From the NCBI RefSeq assembly GCF_009834535.1, contig NC_045696.1, forward strand, positions 32,180,001 to 32,244,000: a stretch of DNA of 64,000 nucleotides, in the 5' to 3' direction. The translations under genes and the position numbers were made by a program. This DNA comes from Camelus ferus (taxonomy: Eukaryota). Under the pieces are notes generated by a model. It made no database searches, was not told the DNA's origin, and worked only from the letters and a program-made list of their open reading frames with translations. This document shows, piece after piece, positions 6,201 to 48,829 of this stretch (position 1 is its first letter; each line of letters starts with the position of its first letter).

Positions 6201-6335
6201 GGGGAGGAGGTTATAGCTCAGTGGTAGAGTGCATGTCTAGCATGCATGAGGTCCTGGGTTCAATCCCCAGTACCTCCGTTAAGAAACAAATTAGTAAGTC
6301 TGATTACCTACACCCCCCAAAAAAAGAAAAAGAAA
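6201..6335 (+). mobile_element. tRNA-Ala-derived SINE (camelid Vic-1-like)
   Basis: GGGGAGGAGGTTATAGCTCAGTGGTAGAG (A box), GGTTCAATCCCC (B box), unique tail ...TGATTACCTACACCCCCC plus A-rich tail. Imperfect TSD AAGAAATCT (6191-6199) / AAGAAATGT (6336-6344). Confidence 0.85.
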
Positions 6336-15986: not shown

Positions 15987-16129
15987 AATTAATTAATTAA
16001 TTAATTAATTATTTTTGGCGAGGGGAGGTATTAGGTTTATTTATTTATTTTTAGAGGAGGTACTGGGGATGGATCCCAGGACCTTGTGGATGTTAAGCAT
16101 GTGCTTTACCACTAAGTTATATCCTCCCC
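15987..16129 (-). mobile_element. tRNA-Ala-derived SINE (Vic-1-like)
   Basis: Reverse strand reads GGGGAGGATATAACTTAGTGGTAAAGCACATGCTTAACATCC...GGTCCTGGGATCCATCCCCAGTACCTCC...AAACCTAATACCTCCCC. Flanked by a 14-bp TSD with 1 mismatch: TCTAGCCTGACTTT (15973-15986) / TCTGGCCTGACTTT (16130-16143). Confidence 0.9.
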
Positions 16130-17009
16130 TCTGGCCTGACTTTGATTAAATTGATCATTTTAATGTTTGAAATAAATTTTTTGTTTTAATTTTTATTTTA
16201 ATCTATATTTAATTTTGTTTTAATCTATATTAAATGGAATCCCTTGTGCTCTTTTGTTTGTAGTTTTATAAGGTAGCCACACTTAAAATCATGCAAATGA
16301 TGCACCCTGTGCTGAAAAACATTTTTGTATTTTGGTGATAGCTGGAAGTAGAGAGGAATAATAAAACATGAGAAACCTACTCTCAAGTTTATATGACTTC
16401 TTGTCTAAAGCCTATGATAAGTGCAACATTTCTTCTCGATGAATTTTCAGTAAGCAGGTTTTATGACCTCTTCTGTGTGAGAAGAGTAGCAGACTTATAT
16501 AAATTGTTGGAAATATAGACTTAAAAATGTAAGGTTATTATCTATTTAAGGTTAAACTGATGTAGAGCACACATTGTGGCCAAAGGGGAAAGAATTTATT
16601 TCAGAGACATCTATTTATTAATGAAATATAGATAATTATTTTACAGATTAGGCTCTTTAATGCTATATTTTGTCAGCTCTACCACTGAATCAATTCTACA
16701 GGAAAGAAACACAGAATAGTCCTCTGCTTTGTTATTTCTTTTACTCTTGTCATGGTTTTAACTACTTTGAATATGTGTTTCTATTTTTTGATGAATTGTT
16801 GCTTTGATCTTTTCATTTTAAGATAACTGGTATATATAGATATTTTATGAAGTAGAGAAAAAAACAAAATTGTTGTCATTTTTATAAACAATAAAATGTT
16901 TGCATTTTCCATAATTCATTGTTTTATGATTGATCTAGTGGCTATTAGCTGTCTAAAATAATTGAATCATCTAGGTTTCTAGATCAAACTAGCTCAGCTA
17001 CCAGTTTAG

Positions 17010-17420
17010 TGCTTTTATTGCATGTCTCACAATGTTGCCATGTCCAAAATTCAACAATGGTTCCAACTTCAAGCACATTATGAAAAAATTACTTCATATC
17101 AGTAAATAGCTTGTTCTTATTTCATAGTCAAGGTCCTAAGAATCATCCTTCACTTTTCATTTTCATTTTAATTTTTCTCTTTTTTTTAACAGCCAAACTA
17201 TTTTCAATTTCCATTGCTTCTACCTCTTAAATATATCTCAAATCTGTCTCTTTTCCTGTTTCTCCTGCCACTGCTTTGTTTGACACCTAATTCCTCTACA
17301 CTACTTTTACTCTTATGTGTCTTCATTTTCACATTCCCCAAACTCTTCTCCATTACAGCACATTGATTCTTAAACTAAAAAACAAAAAATATTATAAAAG
17401 AGATCACAGTCTTAATTAAA
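17010..17420 (+). mobile_element. L2 LINE remnant, 5' part (apparently continues after the L1 at about 20104-20245)
   Basis: catgtccaaaattcaac...gaatcatccttcactt...ttctacctcttaaatatatctcaaatctgtc resembles L2; the L2 terminus caataaacatggatgaatgagtgaatgaatg is at about 20210-20240. Confidence 0.55.
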
Positions 17421-17485
17421 ATTACTAATTTCTGTTGTAGCATTCATCACAAATTTGTAAATTTTACTTTTAAGAAATCTGTCTC

Positions 17486-18795
17486 GGTCTTGAGAGGCAA
17501 GATGGCAGAGTAGAAGGACGCTTGTAGCTCACCCTCTCCCACAAATACACCAAAACTCACATCTGCGGACCCACTTAGCCAACCAGAGCACCAGCCAAAC
17601 TCCGACAGAACGTTGCCCTCTTCGAAAGATGAAGACGCCAAAAATCTGGTAGGAGAAAAGGAAAAAAGAAAGAAGAAAAAAGCAAAACAGTGAGGGACCA
17701 ATCCCGCGGGGAGGGAGCAGCAAAGGAGGACTGGCGCTCGTTTGCTGTGTCTCTCCTCTCCATCAGAGAGGCCAGCGGGACTGAAGGGGAGCCTCCGAGG
17801 CTCAGATCTGCCCCGAGCACCACTTGACCAACAGAACTGAGTTAAACAGCCACGGAGGGTCCCCATGACACCCAGCTCGAGATGTGAGCCAGCAGCTGGG
17901 GCCAGGACGGGCCGCCCAAGCCAGGCAGAGGACTGGGGCAACTGCACTGAGGCAGCCCCAGGGAACTGCAGGGTTCTGCGCACTGTGGCTGGGAGGGGAT
18001 AAGGAACAGAACAACCTCGGTCCCCCATAAATTGTGAAAAAAGCAAAGCAACACTGCTGGTGTGCCCTAGGGGGAGGGGCCTTTATCTCCTCAGACCTGC
18101 ACCGCCATTACTGGCGCTTCTCGCGAGGAGAGGCGGAGCGCAGCCACAGCTGCCATCTTCTCCTGCGCATAGTGCGTGGGCGGGGGTGGGGCCGAGACCT
18201 GAATCCGGACCTGGGGCCTCTGCAACTTCCTAGGCAGGACTGAGTCTTGTTTACAGCCCAAGGCAGATAGGGTCTTTCTGCCCTGGCACCTCAGAGAACT
18301 TGCGCAGCCAAGACAGACAAGGAGTTGAGATTTGGCACGGAGCAGGGGCGGGGCCATTTCGTAGTCTTCCCTGAGCCCACCTTTGGAGTGCCAACCTGAG
18401 GCAGAGCGGGCAGCTGCACAGAGCAGCGGAGCGACCAGCGCCTGGAGAGGGTGGGCGGCCAACGGCCTTCCTGGCAGGAGCGCAGCACCTGACCACGGTG
18501 CTGGGAGGGGGAACGATCCGTTCACCTGCCTCCTGAGTGCAGCATCTGACTGTGGCATTGGGAGGGGGAATGACCTCAGCACCTGACCCAGTGTTAGGAG
18601 GGGGCACGATCTGCTAGCCAACAGCCACTGGGAGCAGCACAGATGAGGGCGCCAACAGAGGGCCTCTGGAAACAGCAAGCTGAGTTCATGAAACAGGATG
18701 AAGACACAAAGACCTCTGGATAAAATCATTAAGAGCACACCATCTCCAGGAGAACTAGATAACTGATACTCCTTAAGCCACAGTGCCAGAGAGAT
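17486..18795 (+). promoter_or_regulatory. L1 5' UTR internal Pol II promoter (CpG-rich)
   Basis: Only extended GC/CpG-rich tract in the window; YY1 motif CAAGATGGC at 17498-17506; GC box GGGGCGGGG near 18345-18353; lies directly upstream of the ORF1 ATG. Confidence 0.8.
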
Positions 18796-19281
18796 ATGAG
18801 CAATATGAAGAAGCAGAGGAACCGCTTCCAATTAAAATATCAAGAGAAATCCCCTGAAAGCACAATCAAGGAAATAGACATTGATGGCCTACTAGATCAA
18901 GATTTCAAAAAAGGAGTGATCAAAGTGCTGAAGGAACTGAAAAGAAATAGTGTTTAGAGATATAAAATATGTCAAAAATGAAACAGAAGCTATAAAGAAG
19001 AACCAAGTAGAATTAGGAAATTCATTTGCTGAGATGAGAGCTGACCTAAAGGCTGTACAAAGCAGGCTAGATAATGCAGAGGAACGAATTAGTGACCTAG
19101 AAGACAGGATGAAAAAAAAGAAGTCCTGAATGAAAAAAAGATGCAGCCTAGGATACTCTATCCAGCAAGGCTATCCTTTAGAATAGAAGGAGAGATAAAG
19201 AACTTCACAGACAAGCAAAAACTAAAAGAGTTTAGCAACACTAAACCCATGCTAAAAGAAATAGTGACAGGTCTACTGTAA
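18796..19281 (+). pseudogene. L1 ORF1p remnant, frameshifted and internally deleted
   Basis: MSNMKKQRNRFQLKYQEKSPE...KVLKELK, then a +1 shift at the A-run 18940-18943 (TAG at 18955-18957), then EIVFRDIKYVKNE...RLDNAEERISDLEDR. Jumps at about 19112-19121 to VLNEKKMQPRILYPARLSFRIEGEIKNFTDKQKLKEFSNTKPMLKEIVTGLL*. Confidence 0.9.
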
Positions 19282-19422
19282 ATAGAAGAGAAGCAGGATG
19301 CTACAAAAATGAGAAACTCATAACTGGAAAGTAGATAACTGCCATGAATTACAAAAAGAATAAACACAAAATTGTAAAAGAAGACATTTAAATCATTAAG
19401 AGTGGGAGAGGGAAGCAAGGAA

Positions 19423-19797
19423 AGCCACTGTGGAAAACAGTATGGAGATTCCTCAAAAGACTAGGAATAGACTTACCATATGACGCAGGAATCCTGCTCC
19501 GGGAAATATATCCAGAAGGAGCCCTACTTCAAAATGACACCTGCACCCCAATGTTCATAGCAGCACTATTTACAGTAGCCAAGACATGGAAACAGCCTAA
19601 ATGTCCATCAACAGATGACTGAATAAAGAAGCTGTGGTATATTTATATGATGGAATACTATTCAGCCACAAAAAATGACAACATGACACCATTTGCAGCA
19701 ACATGAATGTTCCTGGAGAATGTCACTCTAAGTGAAGTAAGCCAGAAAGAGAAAAAAAAAAAAATACCATGTGAGATCACTCATATGTGGAATCTAA
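19423..19797 (+). pseudogene. L1 ORF2p extreme C-terminal remnant
   Basis: [73 protein letters not shown]..., with in-frame stops; collinear with the minus-strand L1 ORF at 43544-44038. Confidence 0.9.
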
Positions 19798-22700
19798 AAA
19801 CAAAAAAACCCATAAACACAAAACAGAAACAGACTCATAGACACAATACAAACTTGTGGTTGCCAAGGGGGTGGGGGGTGGGAAGGGACAGACTGGGATT
19901 TTAAAACACAGAATAGATAAACAAGGTTATACTGTATAGCACAGGGAAATATATACAAGATCTTGTGGTAACTCATAGTGAAAAAAATGTGACAATATAT
20001 ATATGTTCATGTATAACTAAAAAATTGTTTTCTACACTAGAATTTGACACAACATTGTAAAATGACTACTACTCAATAATAATAAATAAAATAAATCTGT
20101 CTCCTAATTTCTAAATTTCTGAATTTTATGTACATGTGTAATGTTCACTGCCACATTTTCAGCATCTTGCATTGCTAATATCCATGGCATTGCTTATCTG
20201 GTACATGTCCAATAAACATGGATGAATGAGTGAATGAATGTATGAATTCTTGCTTTAGATGCACAGGTGATTATGGGCAGAATTTACCACTGCACATCAG
20301 CTTAGACCTATTTGTTTGGCATTTCAATCTTGAGGCTCAGCTTTTATTTCTAAGTGTAACCCCCTCACCTCTTTCACAGATTAGTCCAACAGTTTAATCT
20401 CTTTGATTCCAAATCCCTTCTCTTTCACAACCACTGCCTAAAATTCATTCTACATATAACTATAATATTTATCATGTACCTCCACTGTTGGAAACTCTCC
20501 AATTATTTCCTTTTGCCTTTAAAATTAGTCCAGATTTTAAAACGTGATGCATATTCTGATGTCTTCTTGTTGCTTCAAATTTACATTTGTAACTCTCCCA
20601 CCTGGAAACCTGCAGTTCTTTCAGGCTTTATTTTCTTCTTTTATGTGAAGTAAAAGCCTTTTGTTATGCCAGGACTTTGGACAAGTTTTCCCTTTTTTCT
20701 AGAACATTCTTCCTTTTTTGCTTAACATCTATCTACTCTCTCAATTTAAGGTTTTTTACATTGCTGGATATCCCCAGACAAAATTTAGAGGCCCAGCCTT
20801 CCTACTATATAAATCAGAGGACTGTATTTCTGCCATGGTGACCATTATCTTCACTGGTGCTGACACACAGAACCAGGTTAAGACACATTGATACAAGCAA
20901 ATATATCTTCACATGAACTGTTAAGTTTTATGATGATTCCTTTGTAAATTTCATTTATTAAACATAACATTAGCAAACTAAAGGGAATATAAAGAAGCCA
21001 TGTGAGGTTTGTAAGCCATAGATCAAAGGAAAATCAAAGAATTGAATTGAGAAGAATTTATTTACATAAAATAATGTTTCCAACATTAGTCCTAAACTAT
21101 TGCTGTTATGTCATTACAAATGCTATTAAATGAAAAACTGCCCTGCATATCAAATATCTGCACTAAGGCATATATCCACTATACTCCGAGAGTGAAAGTG
21201 TTATTATTTTAAAATTTAGACAGGTTTTTCCAGAAGTGGTTTTGTCGACTTTCCTTGGGGAGGGTCGGTGTGCTGGGAGAGGAGATGCTGATTGGGGGAG
21301 GACAGAAATAAATGAGTCCTTTCCAGCAGGAGGGCTGACAGGTAGGAGATTGAAGGTAAGGTAATTAGCAAAGCTAGGTGGGAGGAGAGGTGCTTCTAGG
21401 GCAGTTCCTGAGATGAATCTGTAACTGATATCCCCATTTGTACACTGGTGTAATAGATTTTCATTTAAAATGAAATTAAAACATAATGAAGCAAATTTGA
21501 TGTCTGCCAAGTTGGTTAAAATAGAGCCCTACATTTACTCACACTTCTCAGCTGAGCTGATACAATGTAGAAAAGTGAGACTAGAGTAACCTGATATTTG
21601 TTCTACCAATTTTGATAGGAAGCAAATTTACGTATGTATTTTAAAATCGTTTATAAATTAGTTTCTTCTAGAGACTTACCATTCTACTTATACAATGATA
21701 ATTACCTAAGAAGTAATTTTAGTGAGTTTAACACAGTGAGTTGAGGCTTGTATTTACCTAGTAATGTTGTTCTGTAAAAGCAATAAATTATTGCCTTTCT
21801 GATGGACAATCATTTTATAAATGTATAGTTATTTATGTACATATGCCTAACTACATAGCTACATATACAAAGCCGGAGCGAAGGGTGGTAGAGATCAGCA
21901 TTGTTGTGGTTTATTGTTGGGAAAATGTTAAAAACAAAACCTGAAACATTTTAAAATGTATTTTCTTTCTGAATATGGGTCAGTAGTTTCACTGAATTTT
22001 CTTTAAAAAGATAACTTTCCACATCAGCCAGGAAAACATAAAACAAAGACAAAGAGTTCAACAAATATTGATCAATTCTAGGGAATTATAATTTGGCTTT
22101 TAGAACTTTATACATTTGCACAAAGATAGATTTAAATGATGACTATCTGTAATGGTACAAGGGGAGAATGACACATTAACTACTTTATCAAATGTGTTAC
22201 CTTCAATGTATAATACCTACTTGTTTGCCATTAATAAAAAAATTGAGGTGCCAGTACTCATGGGAGAATGTTTTTGAAAGTAGATTAATTTCCAACATAA
22301 ATTGATTGTTAATAAGTGCCAAATTCTTAAAGGGCCATTTATCTGAATTCTTGACTTACTAGATAACAATTATCTTGATATTCCTTTCTTCTGAATTCAT
22401 TTCAAATATTTTTATTCTTTCTCCGTGGATTATTTATAGAATATGAAAACTCTTACCCAATGGATTGATTTTGATATCTTTATAAACTACATTTGGTTTT
22501 TAAAATAATCATTTAAAATATTTTATTTGTAAATAGAAAGGCAGGAAATAGGGAATTTTACTCATTGTGTTCTTGTTAAATCCTAGATATGTGCATACAT
22601 ATCAAAATTTGGCCCCTGCAGTCATTCCAAAAGCACATTGATGGGGCTCCAGGATATTGAGGGACAATTGTCTTTAACAGGACCTTTCCTCAAGTATGGA

Positions 22701-30472: not shown

Positions 30473-31070
30473 GTTTTAATTGAAATATAGTTGACAATCA
30501 ACATGGTGTAAGTTTAAGGTGTATTACATGTTGATTTGATAAATTTATATATCGCCATAGCATTAGCTAACACATCTACCATGTCACATAATTATCACTT
30601 CTTTCTTGTGGTGAGAGCATTTAAGATTTGTCTCTCAGCAACTTTTGAGGTTTATAATACAGTATTGTTGATTGTAATCACTATGCCATGCATTAGATCT
30701 TCAGAACTTAACAATTCATCTTCTAACTACAAGTTCATACCCTTTAACAATATCTCCCCAATTCCCCATGCCCAGGTCTCTGGTAATGACCATTCTACTC
30801 TCTATTTCTATGAGTTTGGCTTGCTAAGATTCCACATATAAGTGACATTTTAGAGTATTTTTGTCTTTCTCTGACTTAGCTCACTCAACATAATGTCCTC
30901 AAGGTCCATGCATGTTGTTACAAATGGCAGGATTTCCTTCTTTCTCGTGTTTATGTAATATTCCATTTTACATATATACTACATATTCTCTATCCATTCA
31001 TCCATTGATGGGATATTTAGATTTTCATATCTTGGTTATTGTGAATAATGCTGCATTAAACATGGGGTGC
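30473..31070 (-). mobile_element. 5'-truncated L1 3' end (L1MA9-like)
   Basis: ttttaattgaaatatagttgaca...gtggtgagagcatttaagat...accattctactctctatttctatgagttt...agattccacatataagtga...ccatgcatgttgttacaaatggcaggatttcc...tgtgaataatgctgcattaaacatggggtgc. Confidence 0.85.
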
Positions 31071-34429: not shown

Positions 34430-35250
34430 GAAAGAAGATCTACAAATGACTAAACAGCACCTGAAAAGATGTACAATATCACTAATCATTAGGAAAATGC
34501 AAACCAAAATCACAATGATGTAACATTTCAGAGCCATTAGGATGACTATTTAAAAAAAAAATAAGAGAGAAAATAACAGGTGTTGATGAGGATGTGGAGA
34601 AATTGGAACCCCTGTGCATTGCTGATGAGATTATAAAATGTTTTCCATTTCTACTGTGGAAAATGGTATGGTAGTTCCAAAGAATTAAACATGAATTACC
34701 ATATGAACCATCAATTTCACTTCTCAGTCTATACCCCAAATAATAGAAAGCAGAATTGAGACAAATATTTGTTTATTTATGTCCATCACAACATTATTCA
34801 CCAAAAGTTGGAAACAACCTAAATGTTCAATAGATAAATTAAAAAACATAGTATATACATACAATGAAATATTAACCTTTAAAGGAATGAAATTCTGATA
34901 TATGCTACAACATGGATAAATCTTTAAGACATTATGCTAAGTGAAATAAGCCAGATGCAAAGGGACTAATATTGTATGATTCCATTTAGAGGTACTTAAA
35001 ATAGTCCAATTTATAGAGAGAGAAATTAGAATAGAGTTTCTGAGGGGTTAGAGAGTGAGGAAAAGGCGGAGTTATGTTTAATGGTTACAGAATTTCGTTC
35101 TGAAACTCCAAAAACATTCTGAAGATGGATGGTGGTGATAATTGCATATAAATGACAATATATTGAATGCCACTGAACTGTACACTGTGAAGTTGCTAAA
35201 ACTAAATTTTGTAGCATGTATATTTTACCTCAGTAATACAATTCTGAAAA
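34430..35250 (+). mobile_element. 5'-truncated old L1 (L1MB-like): ORF2 end plus 3' UTR
   Basis: aaagaagatctacaaatg...aaaagatgtacaatatcactaatcattaggaaaatgcaaaccaaaatcacaatg...gaggatgtggagaaattggaaccc...ttatgctaagtgaaataagccag...aatgccactgaactgtacact. Confidence 0.85.
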
Positions 35251-43231: not shown

Positions 43232-44575
43232 TTTTTTTTTTAACATTTTTTATTGATTTATAATCATTTTACCATGTTGTGTCAAATTCCAGTGTTCAGC
43301 ACAGTTTTTCAGTTATTCATGGACATATACACACTCATTGTCACATTTTTTTCTCTGTGAGTTATCATAACATTTTGTGTATATTTCCCTGTGCTATACA
43401 GTGTAGTCTATTCTACAATTTTGAAATCCCAGTCTATCCCTTCCCACCGTCCACCCCCCTGGTAACCACAAGTCTGTATTCTCTGTCTGTGAGTCTATTT
43501 CTGTCCTTTATTTACTCTTTGTTTTTGTTTTTGTTTTTGTTTTTTAGATTCCACATATGAGCGATCTCATATGGTATTTTTCTTTCTCTTTCTGGCTTAC
43601 TTCACTTAGAATGACATTCTCCAGGAGCATCCATGTTGCTGCAAATGGCATTATGTTGTCGGTTTTTATGGCTGAGTAGTATTCCATTGTATAAATATAC
43701 CACATCTTCTTTATCCAGTCACCTGTTGATGGACATTTAGGCTGTTTCCATGTTTTGCCTATTGTAAATAGTGCTGCTATGAACATTGGGGTGCAGGTGT
43801 CATCCTGAAGTAGATTTCCTTCTAGATACAAGCCCAGGAGTGGGATTCCTGGGTCATATGGTAAGTCTATTCCTAGTCTTTTGAGGAATCTCCACACTGT
43901 TTTCCATAGTGGCTGCACCAAACTGCATTCCCACCAGCAGTGTAGGAGGGTTCCCCTTTCTCCACAGCCTCTCCAGCATTTGTCATTTGTGGATTTTTGA
44001 ATGACGGCCATTCTGACTGGTGTGAGGTGATACCTCATTGTAGTTTTGATTTACATTTCTCTGATAATTAGTGATATTGAGCATTTTTTCATGTGCTTTT
44101 TGATCATTTGCATGTCTTCCTTGGAGAATTGCTTGTTTAGGTCTTCTGTCCATTTTTGGATTGGGTTGTTTATTTTTTTCTTATTGAGTCGTATGAGCTG
44201 CTTATATATTCTGGAGATCAAGCCTTTGTCGGTTTCACTTGCAAAAATTTTCTCCCATTCCGTAGGTTTTCTTCTTGTTTTATTTCTGGTTTCCTTTGCT
44301 GTGCAGAAGCTTGTAAGTTTCATTAGGTCCATTTGTTTATTCTTGCTTTTATTTCTTCTAGGAGAAAATTTTTTAAATGTATGTCAGATAATGTTTTGCC
44401 TATGTTTTCCTCTAGGAGGTTTATTGTATCTTGTCTTATGTTTAAGTCTTTAATCCATTTTGAGTTGATTTTTGTATATGGTGTAAGGGAGTGTTCTAGC
44501 TTCATTGTTTTACATGCTGCTGTCCAGTTTTCCCAACACCATTTGCTGAAGAGACTGTCTTTATTCCAATGTATA
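43232..44575 (-). mobile_element. Young 5'-truncated LINE-1 (about 1.35 kb)
   Basis: Poly-T start, 3' UTR, and ORF2 C-terminus in three ORF-track pieces ([23 protein letters not shown]...[23 protein letters not shown]...[14 protein letters not shown]...[10 protein letters not shown]). TSD ATCTTCACTTTC(T)n at 43220-43231 and 44576-44587. Confidence 0.97.
43544..44575 (-). pseudogene. L1 ORF2p C-terminal about 340 codons, including the cysteine-rich region
   Basis: Recognisable ORF2 motifs, broken by one frameshift near 44330 and one stop near 44051-44053. Confidence 0.92.
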
Positions 44576-44599
44576 ATCTTCACTTTCTTTTTTTCTTCA

Positions 44600-47623: not shown

Positions 47624-48705
47624 TAGGCATTTTAAGAATATTCAGATTCTATAGATCCATGTTAAGTAGAGGAATATGCCTGTAGTTTCATTTTGTTATG
47701 AAATTTGCCTCAGAGTAACAGAGCTAAAGACATCAGTTAGGAGGAAAGCAGTGTGATGAACTAATTTACACTAATGAAGAAATGGCAGTCTAACGTTTCA
47801 CGTGAATTTGCATATTTAAAAAACGTTCACATAGGTGACACCATAATGGATGTGACAAAGTTAAAGAAAAGAATTTCAGAGGAGAGGGAAGATATGAGTG
47901 ATCTTAGATGCTTGGGAACTCTTGTCACTTTACCTAAAGAGCTTCTGTGATTTATCTACTGCCTGACAGTATTCCATTACTTACTTAGGAGGCTTAAAAT
48001 AAGTGAAAGAAACACTGCATTATATTAATAAAGAAAACTATAGCATTAAAAAGTGATTTGCATTTGTGAAATTCCCGAAAAGACTATTTCTCTAAAAATC
48101 TTGAAAATTTTGAAGGGAGAGATACCTTAGCGAAAACAAAATGTCTAGGTAGAGGCTAATTTTTTATCCTTCCTAAAACCTCTTTTTATTCATGAGATAT
48201 TATATCAATTATATTCAATTACATAATATTTTGGCAGGAATTAAAAAAACTTAAATCAAAAAAAAAATCTGTCAGAGGTTCAAAATAATGGGAAGCTGAT
48301 ACTTGCAATTGATTTAGTATATAAGTTTGCCTGTTTGTTTATGCTAACTTTCATCATTAGTTTGGTACTTGCTTGTGTTATGGTAATAAAAATATATAAC
48401 AAATATTTATGTATATAGAGAAAATATTTATTTTATCTGAAATGGGAAGACATTTAGTGAACTATTTCAGTTTTTGAAATTGATTTATTTCATAATTTTT
48501 TGAGGCATCTTGAAAGTAAAGAAATGAGATTACTTTCATGATCAAAAAATAGTACTCTATTCATTGTGTATGCATCTTAGATCAAAATCATCGCAAGCAC
48601 AATCTTAGGGTATATTTATTTAGCTTCATTTTGGTAAATATGAATTTTGAATAAAAATGATTTTATATTGCCCCAAATTTAAAACTTTTTTTTCTTAAAT
48701 CCAAA

Positions 48706-48829
48706 ACTAACCCATAGGTAAAATGTCATTCTTTTTATTTTAAGAGAATTGTATAATATTTACAGTAACTAACACACAGATAAAATGTCATTCTTTTTAT
48801 TTTAAGAGAATTGTGTAATATTTACAGTA
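48706..48829. repeat. 62-bp tandem duplication (2 copies)
   Basis: 48706-48767 versus 48768-48829, 4 mismatches. Confidence 0.95.

What the first reader, a model, noticed from the sequence alone, without database searches (positions are those of the whole stretch)
17472..20103. 2.6 kb mini-L1: all cis elements kept, catalytic coding regions deleted; candidate non-autonomous family
Seen: one TSD pair encloses a complete 5' UTR (YY1 motif at the very start), ORF1 N-terminus, ORF1 C-terminus, about 140 bp of inter-ORF sequence, the last ~125 codons of ORF2, the 3' UTR and the tail. Two separate junctions (about 19112-19121 and 19422) remove the ORF1 RRM region and the ORF2 endonuclease and RT. 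Known: L1 copies are normally full-length (6-8 kb), 5'-truncated or 5'-inverted; ORF2-less derivatives (HAL1-type) and spliced L1 insertions exist. Inference: two clean deletions in a young, CpG-retaining copy suggest it was mobilised in trans already in this form, as a Pol II-driven L1 parasite.
Basis: partly seen in the sequence, partly recalled or inferred. Interest (0 to 1): 0.7.

Follow-up and report, generated by a model that had tools for sequence, protein, structure and literature searches.

The report
Broken copy of camel half-L1 retrotransposon
This 2.6-kb camel-type LINE-1 fossil kept both ends but lost most of both genes; the larger loss is likely inherited from a "half-L1" family that would borrow its copying enzyme, a kind known in other mammals, while the smaller loss is likely a one-off break at this spot.

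Summary
The anatomy is real: a camel-type L1 with a 13/14 target-site duplication, a complete 5' end, two ORF1 pieces, 141 bp of inter-ORF, the last 122 codons of ORF2, 3' UTR and tail. It is old rather than young, and the 5' insertion junction is present in DNA runs of two organisms.

The two junctions differ. Junction 1 (ORF1) removes about 429 bp, is not GT-AG, carries an 11-nt insert resembling nearby sequence, and is out of frame. Related sequence in public runs continues into intact ORF1 there. It looks like a one-off repair scar.

Junction 2 (inter-ORF to ORF2 tail) is probably shared. A dromedary gene model from another locus fits it in frame, and adding back the ORF1 gap gives about 3,050 bp. 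The scan has already noted ORF1-only L1s of 3.04-3.11 kb elsewhere in this genome (unchecked notes).

Best reading: a dead copy of a HAL1-type (half-L1) family with a private second deletion. Junction copy numbers could not be counted. An amplified double-deleted family is unlikely (about 6%).

The parts
17472..17485 (+). 5' target-site duplication
   Evidence: 13/14 match to 20090-20103 (D19); 11-mer control
17486..18795 (+). complete L1 5' UTR (internal Pol II promoter by family knowledge); YY1-type core 17498-17506; 57-bp-period repeats 18478-18611
   Evidence: 88-90 contigs of related copies begin at 17498; CpG o/e 0.42; motif position; repeats
18796..19109 (+). ORF1 codons 1-104 (N-terminus and coiled coil), with a +1 frameshift near 18940
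   Evidence: tblastn 78-89% to P0001/P0002/P0012; one base left out at 18939 in 135 of 202 RNA reads
19110..19120 (+). junction 1: 11-nt insert replacing about 429 bp of ORF1 (codons 105-248); out of frame; not GT-AG
   Evidence: loose ends at 19109 (X9 24 contigs, X24 51 reads) and 19121 (X9 40 contigs); insert resembles 19131-19141; domain limits
19121..19281 (+). ORF1 C-terminal domain, last 52 codons and stop
   Evidence: Pfam PF17490 E 8e-18; 85% to P0002 249-300
19282..19422 (+). first 141 bp of the inter-ORF spacer
   Evidence: follows the ORF1 stop; 19336-19415 aligns with the spacer of non-camel L1 loci L006 and L009, above all 300 shuffles
19422..19425 (+). junction 2: inter-ORF joined to the ORF2 tail; EN, RT and the cysteine-rich motif are absent
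   Evidence: alignment to the window's second L1 resumes at 19423; P0140 residue 665 aligns at 19422
19425..19797 (+). last 122 codons of ORF2, with two in-frame stops and an expanded A run
   Evidence: best named hits are Camelus dromedarius ORF2 models
19798..20089 (+). 3' UTR with G-rich tract, AATAAA at 20081 and decayed A-rich tail
   Evidence: 82% to the 3' UTR of the window's second L1
20090..20103 (+). 3' target-site duplication
   Evidence: D19

Best explanation
This is a dead, TSD-flanked camel-type L1 derivative that likely inserted as a ~3.05-kb ORF1-only 'half-L1' (HAL1-type) copy, which would have borrowed ORF2p from full L1s, and that likely lost about 429 bp of ORF1 in a separate one-off event at this locus. 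Steps: (1) Inferred: junction 2 arose once in a founder, fusing the inter-ORF spacer to the ORF2 tail. The founder kept its promoter, ORF1 and 3' end and spread in trans. (2) Shown by the hallmarks: this copy inserted by target-primed reverse transcription (TSD, endonuclease-type site, tail). (3) Inferred: at or after insertion, a break in ORF1 was rejoined with loss of codons 105-248 and an 11-nt patch copied from sequence 10 nt downstream with one A slip, as in polymerase-theta-type end joining or a template switch. (4) Shown: neutral decay followed, with frameshifts and stops. It makes no usable protein.
For: Junction 1 looks private. Related contigs and reads leave the reference at 19109 and rejoin at 19121 in intact ORF1 sequence (X9 24 and 40 contigs; X24 51 reads). 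The lost part begins CA and ends CA. The frame is broken. The insert matches 9 of 11 contiguous bases just downstream, the pattern described for templated inserts in PMC5068794 (passages). Junction 2 looks shared. Of 65 ORF2 hits with the P-L-W motif, 62 have Q before it and only P0140 has K, as this element does. P0140 is a dromedary model that joins translated 5' UTR of this family through R-K to the ORF2 tail. A GT right after that 5' UTR codon in this element and an AG just upstream of junction 2 give exactly that R-K with no base change. P0140 is another locus (67% identity over the translated 5' UTR). The rebuilt length is 3,050 bp. The ORF2 remnant is more decayed than all 23 camel ORF2 proteins (14 of 92, against median 5.4% and maximum 12.9%), while ORF1 shows 5 of 95 (Fisher p 0.03). 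HAL1 is a known, repeatedly evolved type (PMC5753468, PMC2241872, PMC3627910, passages). Unchecked notes of the scan list similar-sized ORF1-only L1s in this genome; these are leads, not evidence.
Against: No DNA of a second junction-2 copy was seen; P0140 is a predicted protein only. In its first 46 remnant residues P0140 shares none of this element's 6 changes, so no common drifted master is shown. The uneven-decay signal disappears with the larger, redundant ORF1 comparison set (12 of 101, p 0.53), and gene models are biased towards intact copies. The insert is A-rich: 5.3% of 20,000 shuffles and 11 of 570 local 11-mers match as well. Only 24 of about 30,000 contig pieces were listed, so the absence of junction-1-spanning pieces is weak evidence. 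A splice origin of junction 2 is not excluded.
Confidence: 0.62

Rival explanations
1. Junction 2 is a splice junction. An inter-ORF donor was spliced to an acceptor at the start of the ORF2 tail, and the spliced RNA was reinserted (SpIRE-like), possibly many times from different parents. Junction 1 is still private.
For: In the window's full-type L1 the resume point follows CAG, and 62 of 65 ORF2 proteins have Q there. Non-camel L1 loci L006 and L009 have AG followed by GT within about 2 nt of the homologous left breakpoint. P0140 shares the junction but not this element's changes, which suits independent events. Spliced L1 insertions are known (PMC5860796, abstract and passages).
Against: The camel donor side was not seen in any call. 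Q-P in ORF2 supplies CAG by coding alone, and a 1-2 nt microhomology explains the join equally well. The SpIREs described in PMC5860796 are 5' UTR and 5' UTR/ORF1 events. One unchecked note on a similar element (e1-9391006) favoured plain deletion.
Confidence: 0.17
2. A full-length L1 inserted here and lost both segments locally, during or after insertion. No family is involved.
For: Junction 1 looks like a local repair scar. No second junction-2 locus was seen as DNA. The remnant shows 3 synonymous against 21 non-synonymous codon differences from the window's other L1, which plain decay also gives.
Against: It needs two independent deletions in one copy. P0140 fits junction 2 in frame at another locus. 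The rebuilt size falls inside the narrow range of other noted ORF1-only copies (lead only).
Confidence: 0.12
3. One reading: the 2.6-kb double-deleted form spread as its own protein-free, Pol II-driven family.
For: All cis parts are kept. Junction-1 copy number was not counted directly.
Against: Related sequence at junction 1 runs into intact ORF1. None of the 24 listed contig pieces crosses it. ORF1p in cis is thought to be needed by HAL1s (PMC3627910 passage). ORF-less bipartite LINEs are reported only from the RTE, Ingi, Vingi and R2 clades (PMC5786205 passage). No note of the scan that I saw describes a 2.6-kb sister.
Confidence: 0.06
4. Assembly collapse or chimera inside a repeat.
For: Neither internal junction was shown in reads or contigs. 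The best runs hold only 0.71-0.72 of the sampled words.
Against: The flank-to-element contig 16800-17526 has 0 differences at flank depth in 3 of 3 DNA runs, and an element-specific internal contig (18094-18279) matches with 0-1 differences. The TSD encloses the unit, and an 11-nt patch is not what a collapse usually makes.
Confidence: 0.03

Closest known systems
HAL1 (half-L1) non-autonomous L1 derivatives, e.g. rat RNHAL1, guinea-pig HAL1, pig HAL1_Ssc (Smit 1999; Bao and Jurka 2010, neither seen; passages in PMC5753468, PMC2241872, PMC3627910, PMC6501411)
   Same: L1-derived, with 5' UTR promoter, ORF1-derived sequence and 3' end kept and ORF2 deleted; inserted with TPRT hallmarks.
   Different: This copy's ORF1 is itself deleted and frameshifted, so it cannot supply ORF1p. 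It keeps 122 codons of ORF2. A camelid HAL1 was not found in the papers searched.
Spliced integrated retrotransposed elements (SpIREs), PMC5860796 (abstract and passages)
   Same: Internally shortened L1 insertion with TSD and tail; junction 2 resumes after CAG.
   Different: The described SpIREs lose 5' UTR or 5' UTR/ORF1 sequence and promoter strength. Junction 1 is not GT-AG, and the donor of junction 2 is untested.
Bipartite ORF-less non-autonomous LINEs (RIME, NARTc, Bov-A, Vingi derivatives), PMC5786205 (passages)
   Same: Both ends kept and no working ORF in this copy.
   Different: Those are multi-copy families from other clades. No second copy of the double-deleted form was found.
Deletions with templated inserts from polymerase-theta end joining, PMC5068794 (passages)
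   Same: Deletion with an insert of about 10 nt copied from within a few bases of the breakpoint, with one slip.
   Different: That paper is on C. elegans. Here it is one A-rich junction with shuffle p about 0.05, and reverse-transcriptase template switching could give the same scar.

Membership tests
HAL1 (half-L1) | L1-derived, ORF2 EN and RT absent | tested here: met
   only the last 122 codons remain
HAL1 (half-L1) | encodes ORF1p | tested here: not met
   codons 105-248 lost, frameshift near 18940, junction out of frame; the parent is only inferred to have had a whole ORF1
HAL1 (half-L1) | dispersed copies sharing the internal junction, each with its own TSD | tested here: inconclusive
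   one other locus inferred from protein P0140; no genome held; collection scans gave no camel DNA
HAL1 (half-L1) | ORF1 conserved while ORF2 remnant drifts | tested here: inconclusive
   5/95 against 14/92, p 0.03; 12/101 against 14/92, p 0.53, with the redundant set
HAL1 (half-L1) | L1-type insertion hallmarks (TSD, endonuclease site, A tail) | tested here: met
SpIRE (spliced L1 insertion) | GT-AG intron removed at junction 1 | tested here: not met
   lost part starts CA and ends CA, with an 11-nt insert
SpIRE (spliced L1 insertion) | GT-AG intron removed at junction 2 | tested here: inconclusive
   CAG acceptor present in the window's other L1; camel donor not seen; AG-GT near the homologous place in L006 and L009
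ORF-less bipartite non-autonomous LINE family | both ends kept, no intact ORF | tested here: met
ORF-less bipartite non-autonomous LINE family | multiple copies sharing all junctions | tested here: inconclusive
   intact ORF1 predominates at junction 1 and none of 24 listed pieces crosses it, but about 30,000 pieces were not listed
Existing Repbase/Dfam camelid consensus | match to a deposited consensus carrying junction 2 | not testable with these tools
   no repeat library is held; the supplement of PMC8605555 could not be read

The most novel reading that the evidence does not exclude
The 2.6-kb form with both junctions spread as its own family: a protein-free, Pol II-driven parasite from the L1 clade, born from a half-L1 whose founding junction was made by splicing. 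ORF-less bipartite LINEs are reported only from the RTE, Ingi, Vingi and R2 clades, so this would show that cis ORF1p is dispensable for an L1-derived RNA.
Probability: 0.06. Interest if true: 0.65.

Novelty: new member of a known kind. Interest (0 to 1): 0.22.

Why it matters
As one dead copy it matters little. It adds indirect support for a camelid half-L1 family that I found in no paper searched (Repbase and Dfam could not be checked). If junction 2 proves to be a splice junction, it would show how half-L1 parasites arise, and that spliced L1s need not be dead ends. If junction 1 proved shared, it would be the first ORF-less family from the L1 clade by the 2018 survey in PMC5786205.

Tried and rejected
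No whole genome is held, so junctions could not be counted. Only one other close L1 piece lies in the window, a 5'-truncated full-type 3' end. ORF1 protein scans of viral and prokaryote contigs found no relative. The metagenome scan gave 13 loci, all non-camel L1s at 54-81% identity. A 3' UTR motif gave 0 viral hits and 1 chance bacterial hit. Look-ups of earlier findings by sequence, relatives and near place were empty. Junction 2 was not examined in sequencing runs, so its presence in raw data and its copy number stay open. Summed contig depth over ORF1 is about 8,000-13,000 times flank depth in X1, but the tool states this is no copy number, so I use it only to say the parent family is abundant. 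An in-frame ORF1 fusion at junction 1 was rejected (frames differ by one base). A splice origin of junction 1 was rejected (CA..CA ends, insert). The L1b row was in the wrong frame and is dropped; one search replaces it. No protein among 269 hit the inter-ORF piece. Literature: no camelid HAL1 in searches, and 'HAL1' occurs 0 times in the main text of PMC8605555. Supplements of PMC8605555 and PMC3183009 could not be read and may hold camelid repeat lists. No structure or complex prediction was run, since no intact protein is encoded.
Full report
Observation. The window is AT-rich mammalian DNA. At 17472-20103 on the + strand lies an L1-type element. The best named protein hits for its ORF2 piece are Camelus dromedarius models at up to 87% identity, and earlier notes of the scan call this genome camel. 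A 14-bp duplication (13 matches) encloses it; its exact 11-mer occurs 3 times in 64 kb against 0.05 expected. The empty site fits an L1 endonuclease site with one mismatch (consensus as in a passage of PMC5860796).

Reality and age. No genome is held. Fourteen runs of two coded organisms hold 0.71-0.72 of the sampled words. I laid three of these DNA runs and one RNA run on 16800-19400. In 3 of 3 DNA runs one contig runs from the flank 41 bases into the element with 0 differences at flank depth, so the insertion is real and shared by organisms A and B. Which species they are is not known to me. In X1 and X3, 88 and 90 contigs of related copies start at 17498, so the 5' end is complete and the parent family is large. 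The copy is old. Of the 40 variant sites listed (378 in all), 36 show another letter in at least 95% of X1 depth. The commonest likeness class among X1's 8,588 laid contigs is 90-95% (4,060). There is a frameshift in ORF1 and there are two stops in the ORF2 remnant. CpG is only partly kept (o/e 0.42 against 0.15). A passage of PMC3183009 reports no young repeat families in alpaca.

Junction 1. Related sequence leaves the reference at 19109 (X9 24 contigs, X24 51 reads) and re-enters at 19121 (X9 40 contigs) in intact ORF1 sequence. Against the 300-residue ORF1 P0002 the loss is about 429 bp, codons 105-248. That covers the end of the trimerisation coil, the whole RRM and the start of the CTD. 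The lost part starts and ends with CA, so it is no intron. Eleven bases are inserted, and 9 of them match contiguously 10 nt downstream with one extra A. This resembles templated inserts of polymerase-theta repair (PMC5068794, passages), but the sequence is A-rich: 5.3% of 20,000 shuffles and 11 of 570 local 11-mers do as well. The join is out of frame. None of the 24 contig pieces listed crosses it, but about 30,000 were not listed, so its copy number is not measured. I infer a one-off event at or after insertion.

Junction 2. Against the window's second L1 (43234-44590, minus strand) the alignment resumes at 19423, just after that copy's CAG. This junction was not examined in reads. The evidence that it is shared is indirect. 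Among 136 ORF2-hit proteins, 65 carry the P-L-W motif; 62 have Q before it, and only P0140 has K, as this element does. P0140 is a dromedary gene model that runs through translated 5' UTR of this family and then R-K into the ORF2 tail. In this element a GT follows that 5' UTR codon at the right phase, and an AG lies just upstream of junction 2. Joining them yields R-K with no base change, whereas a full-length L1 would need about three changes (inference). P0140 is a different locus (67% identity over the translated 5' UTR, no flank matches), but its DNA was not seen. Adding back the ORF1 gap gives 3,050 bp. Earlier notes of the scan list nine ORF1-only elements of 3,042-3,108 bp in this genome, two of them described with a mosaic tail and so probably another family. 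One note says its deletion ends at a conserved CAG, and one reports an abundant family with the same deletion in all copies examined. These notes changed my reading but are unchecked, and I could not compare their sequences.

Decay test. The ORF2 remnant differs from the majority of 23 camel ORF2 proteins at 14 of 92 positions, more than any of them (median 5.4%, maximum 12.9%) and more than the window's other L1 (5 of 92). ORF1 differs at 5 of 95 against four non-redundant relatives (p 0.03), but at 12 of 101 against the full redundant set of 14 (p 0.53). This leans towards a remnant that drifted in a non-autonomous lineage but is inconclusive. Against it, P0140 shares none of the 6 changes in the 46 residues compared.

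Origin of junction 2. The acceptor-like CAG is present, and two non-camel L1 loci (L006, L009; probably pig, my inference) have AG then GT within about 2 nt of the homologous left breakpoint. The camel donor was not seen, and a 1-2 nt microhomology fits as well. I commit to a single founding deletion and give splicing 0.17.

Comparison with the known. HAL1 elements encode only ORF1p and arose several times in mammals (PMC5753468, passages). The rat has about 7,500 (PMC2241872, passage), and cis ORF1p is thought to be required (PMC3627910, passage). Smit 1999 and Bao and Jurka 2010 were seen only as citations. This element likely descends from something that works like a HAL1, but it fails the ORF1-coding test itself, so I file it as a broken derivative and not as a functional member. 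SpIREs (PMC5860796, abstract and passages) lose 5' sequence and are called dead ends. ORF-less bipartite LINEs are reported from four other clades (PMC5786205, passages). Searches and the main text of PMC8605555 gave no camelid HAL1. Repbase, Dfam and two supplements could not be seen and may already hold it. Other papers opened: PMC6726744, PMC6501411, PMC6675863, PMC8535693 and bioRxiv 10.1101/2024.08.27.596794, passages only.

Verdict. Observation confirmed, interpretation partly supported. It is most likely a dead half-L1-type copy with a private second deletion: a new member of a known kind, interest 0.22.

Noticed in passing
window 43234-44590 (-): 5'-truncated camel-type L1 3' end that keeps ORF2 upstream of the junction-2 point; 82.6% identical to the element's 3' part; it appears to lack a few codons near 44360 compared with P0150.
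   Followed up: partly
window 6206-6323 (+) and 16012-16127 (-): tRNA-Ala(AGC) call with a 76% identical inverted copy about 10 kb away; probably tRNA-derived SINE copies (camelid Vic-1 is recalled, not tested).
   Followed up: no
window 30827-31070 (-) and 34431-34862 (+): Older L1 ORF2 fragments, 67-71% identical to the younger copies.
   Followed up: no
window 48705-48829: Tandem duplication of a 62-bp unit, 93% matches.
   Followed up: no
window 17240-17250: A third exact copy of the 11-bp TSD core lies 235 bp upstream of the insertion; probably chance.
   Followed up: no
window 17547-19283 as laid: A different single-copy locus in all three DNA runs joins the family's 5' start to its inter-ORF region (skips 1,735 bases, 14 letters between); many other single-copy internal deletions with short inserts are listed, so such scars are common in this family.
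   Followed up: no
P0150 (Camelus bactrianus GTF2F2 isoform X1 model): The model splices GTF2F2 N-terminal exons to about 275 residues of L1 ORF2; possible exonised L1 or annotation artefact.
   Followed up: no
L014 100-1771: Bacterial MAG contig with a short repeat about every 75 bp, CRISPR-like; a chance hit of the motif scan.
   Followed up: no
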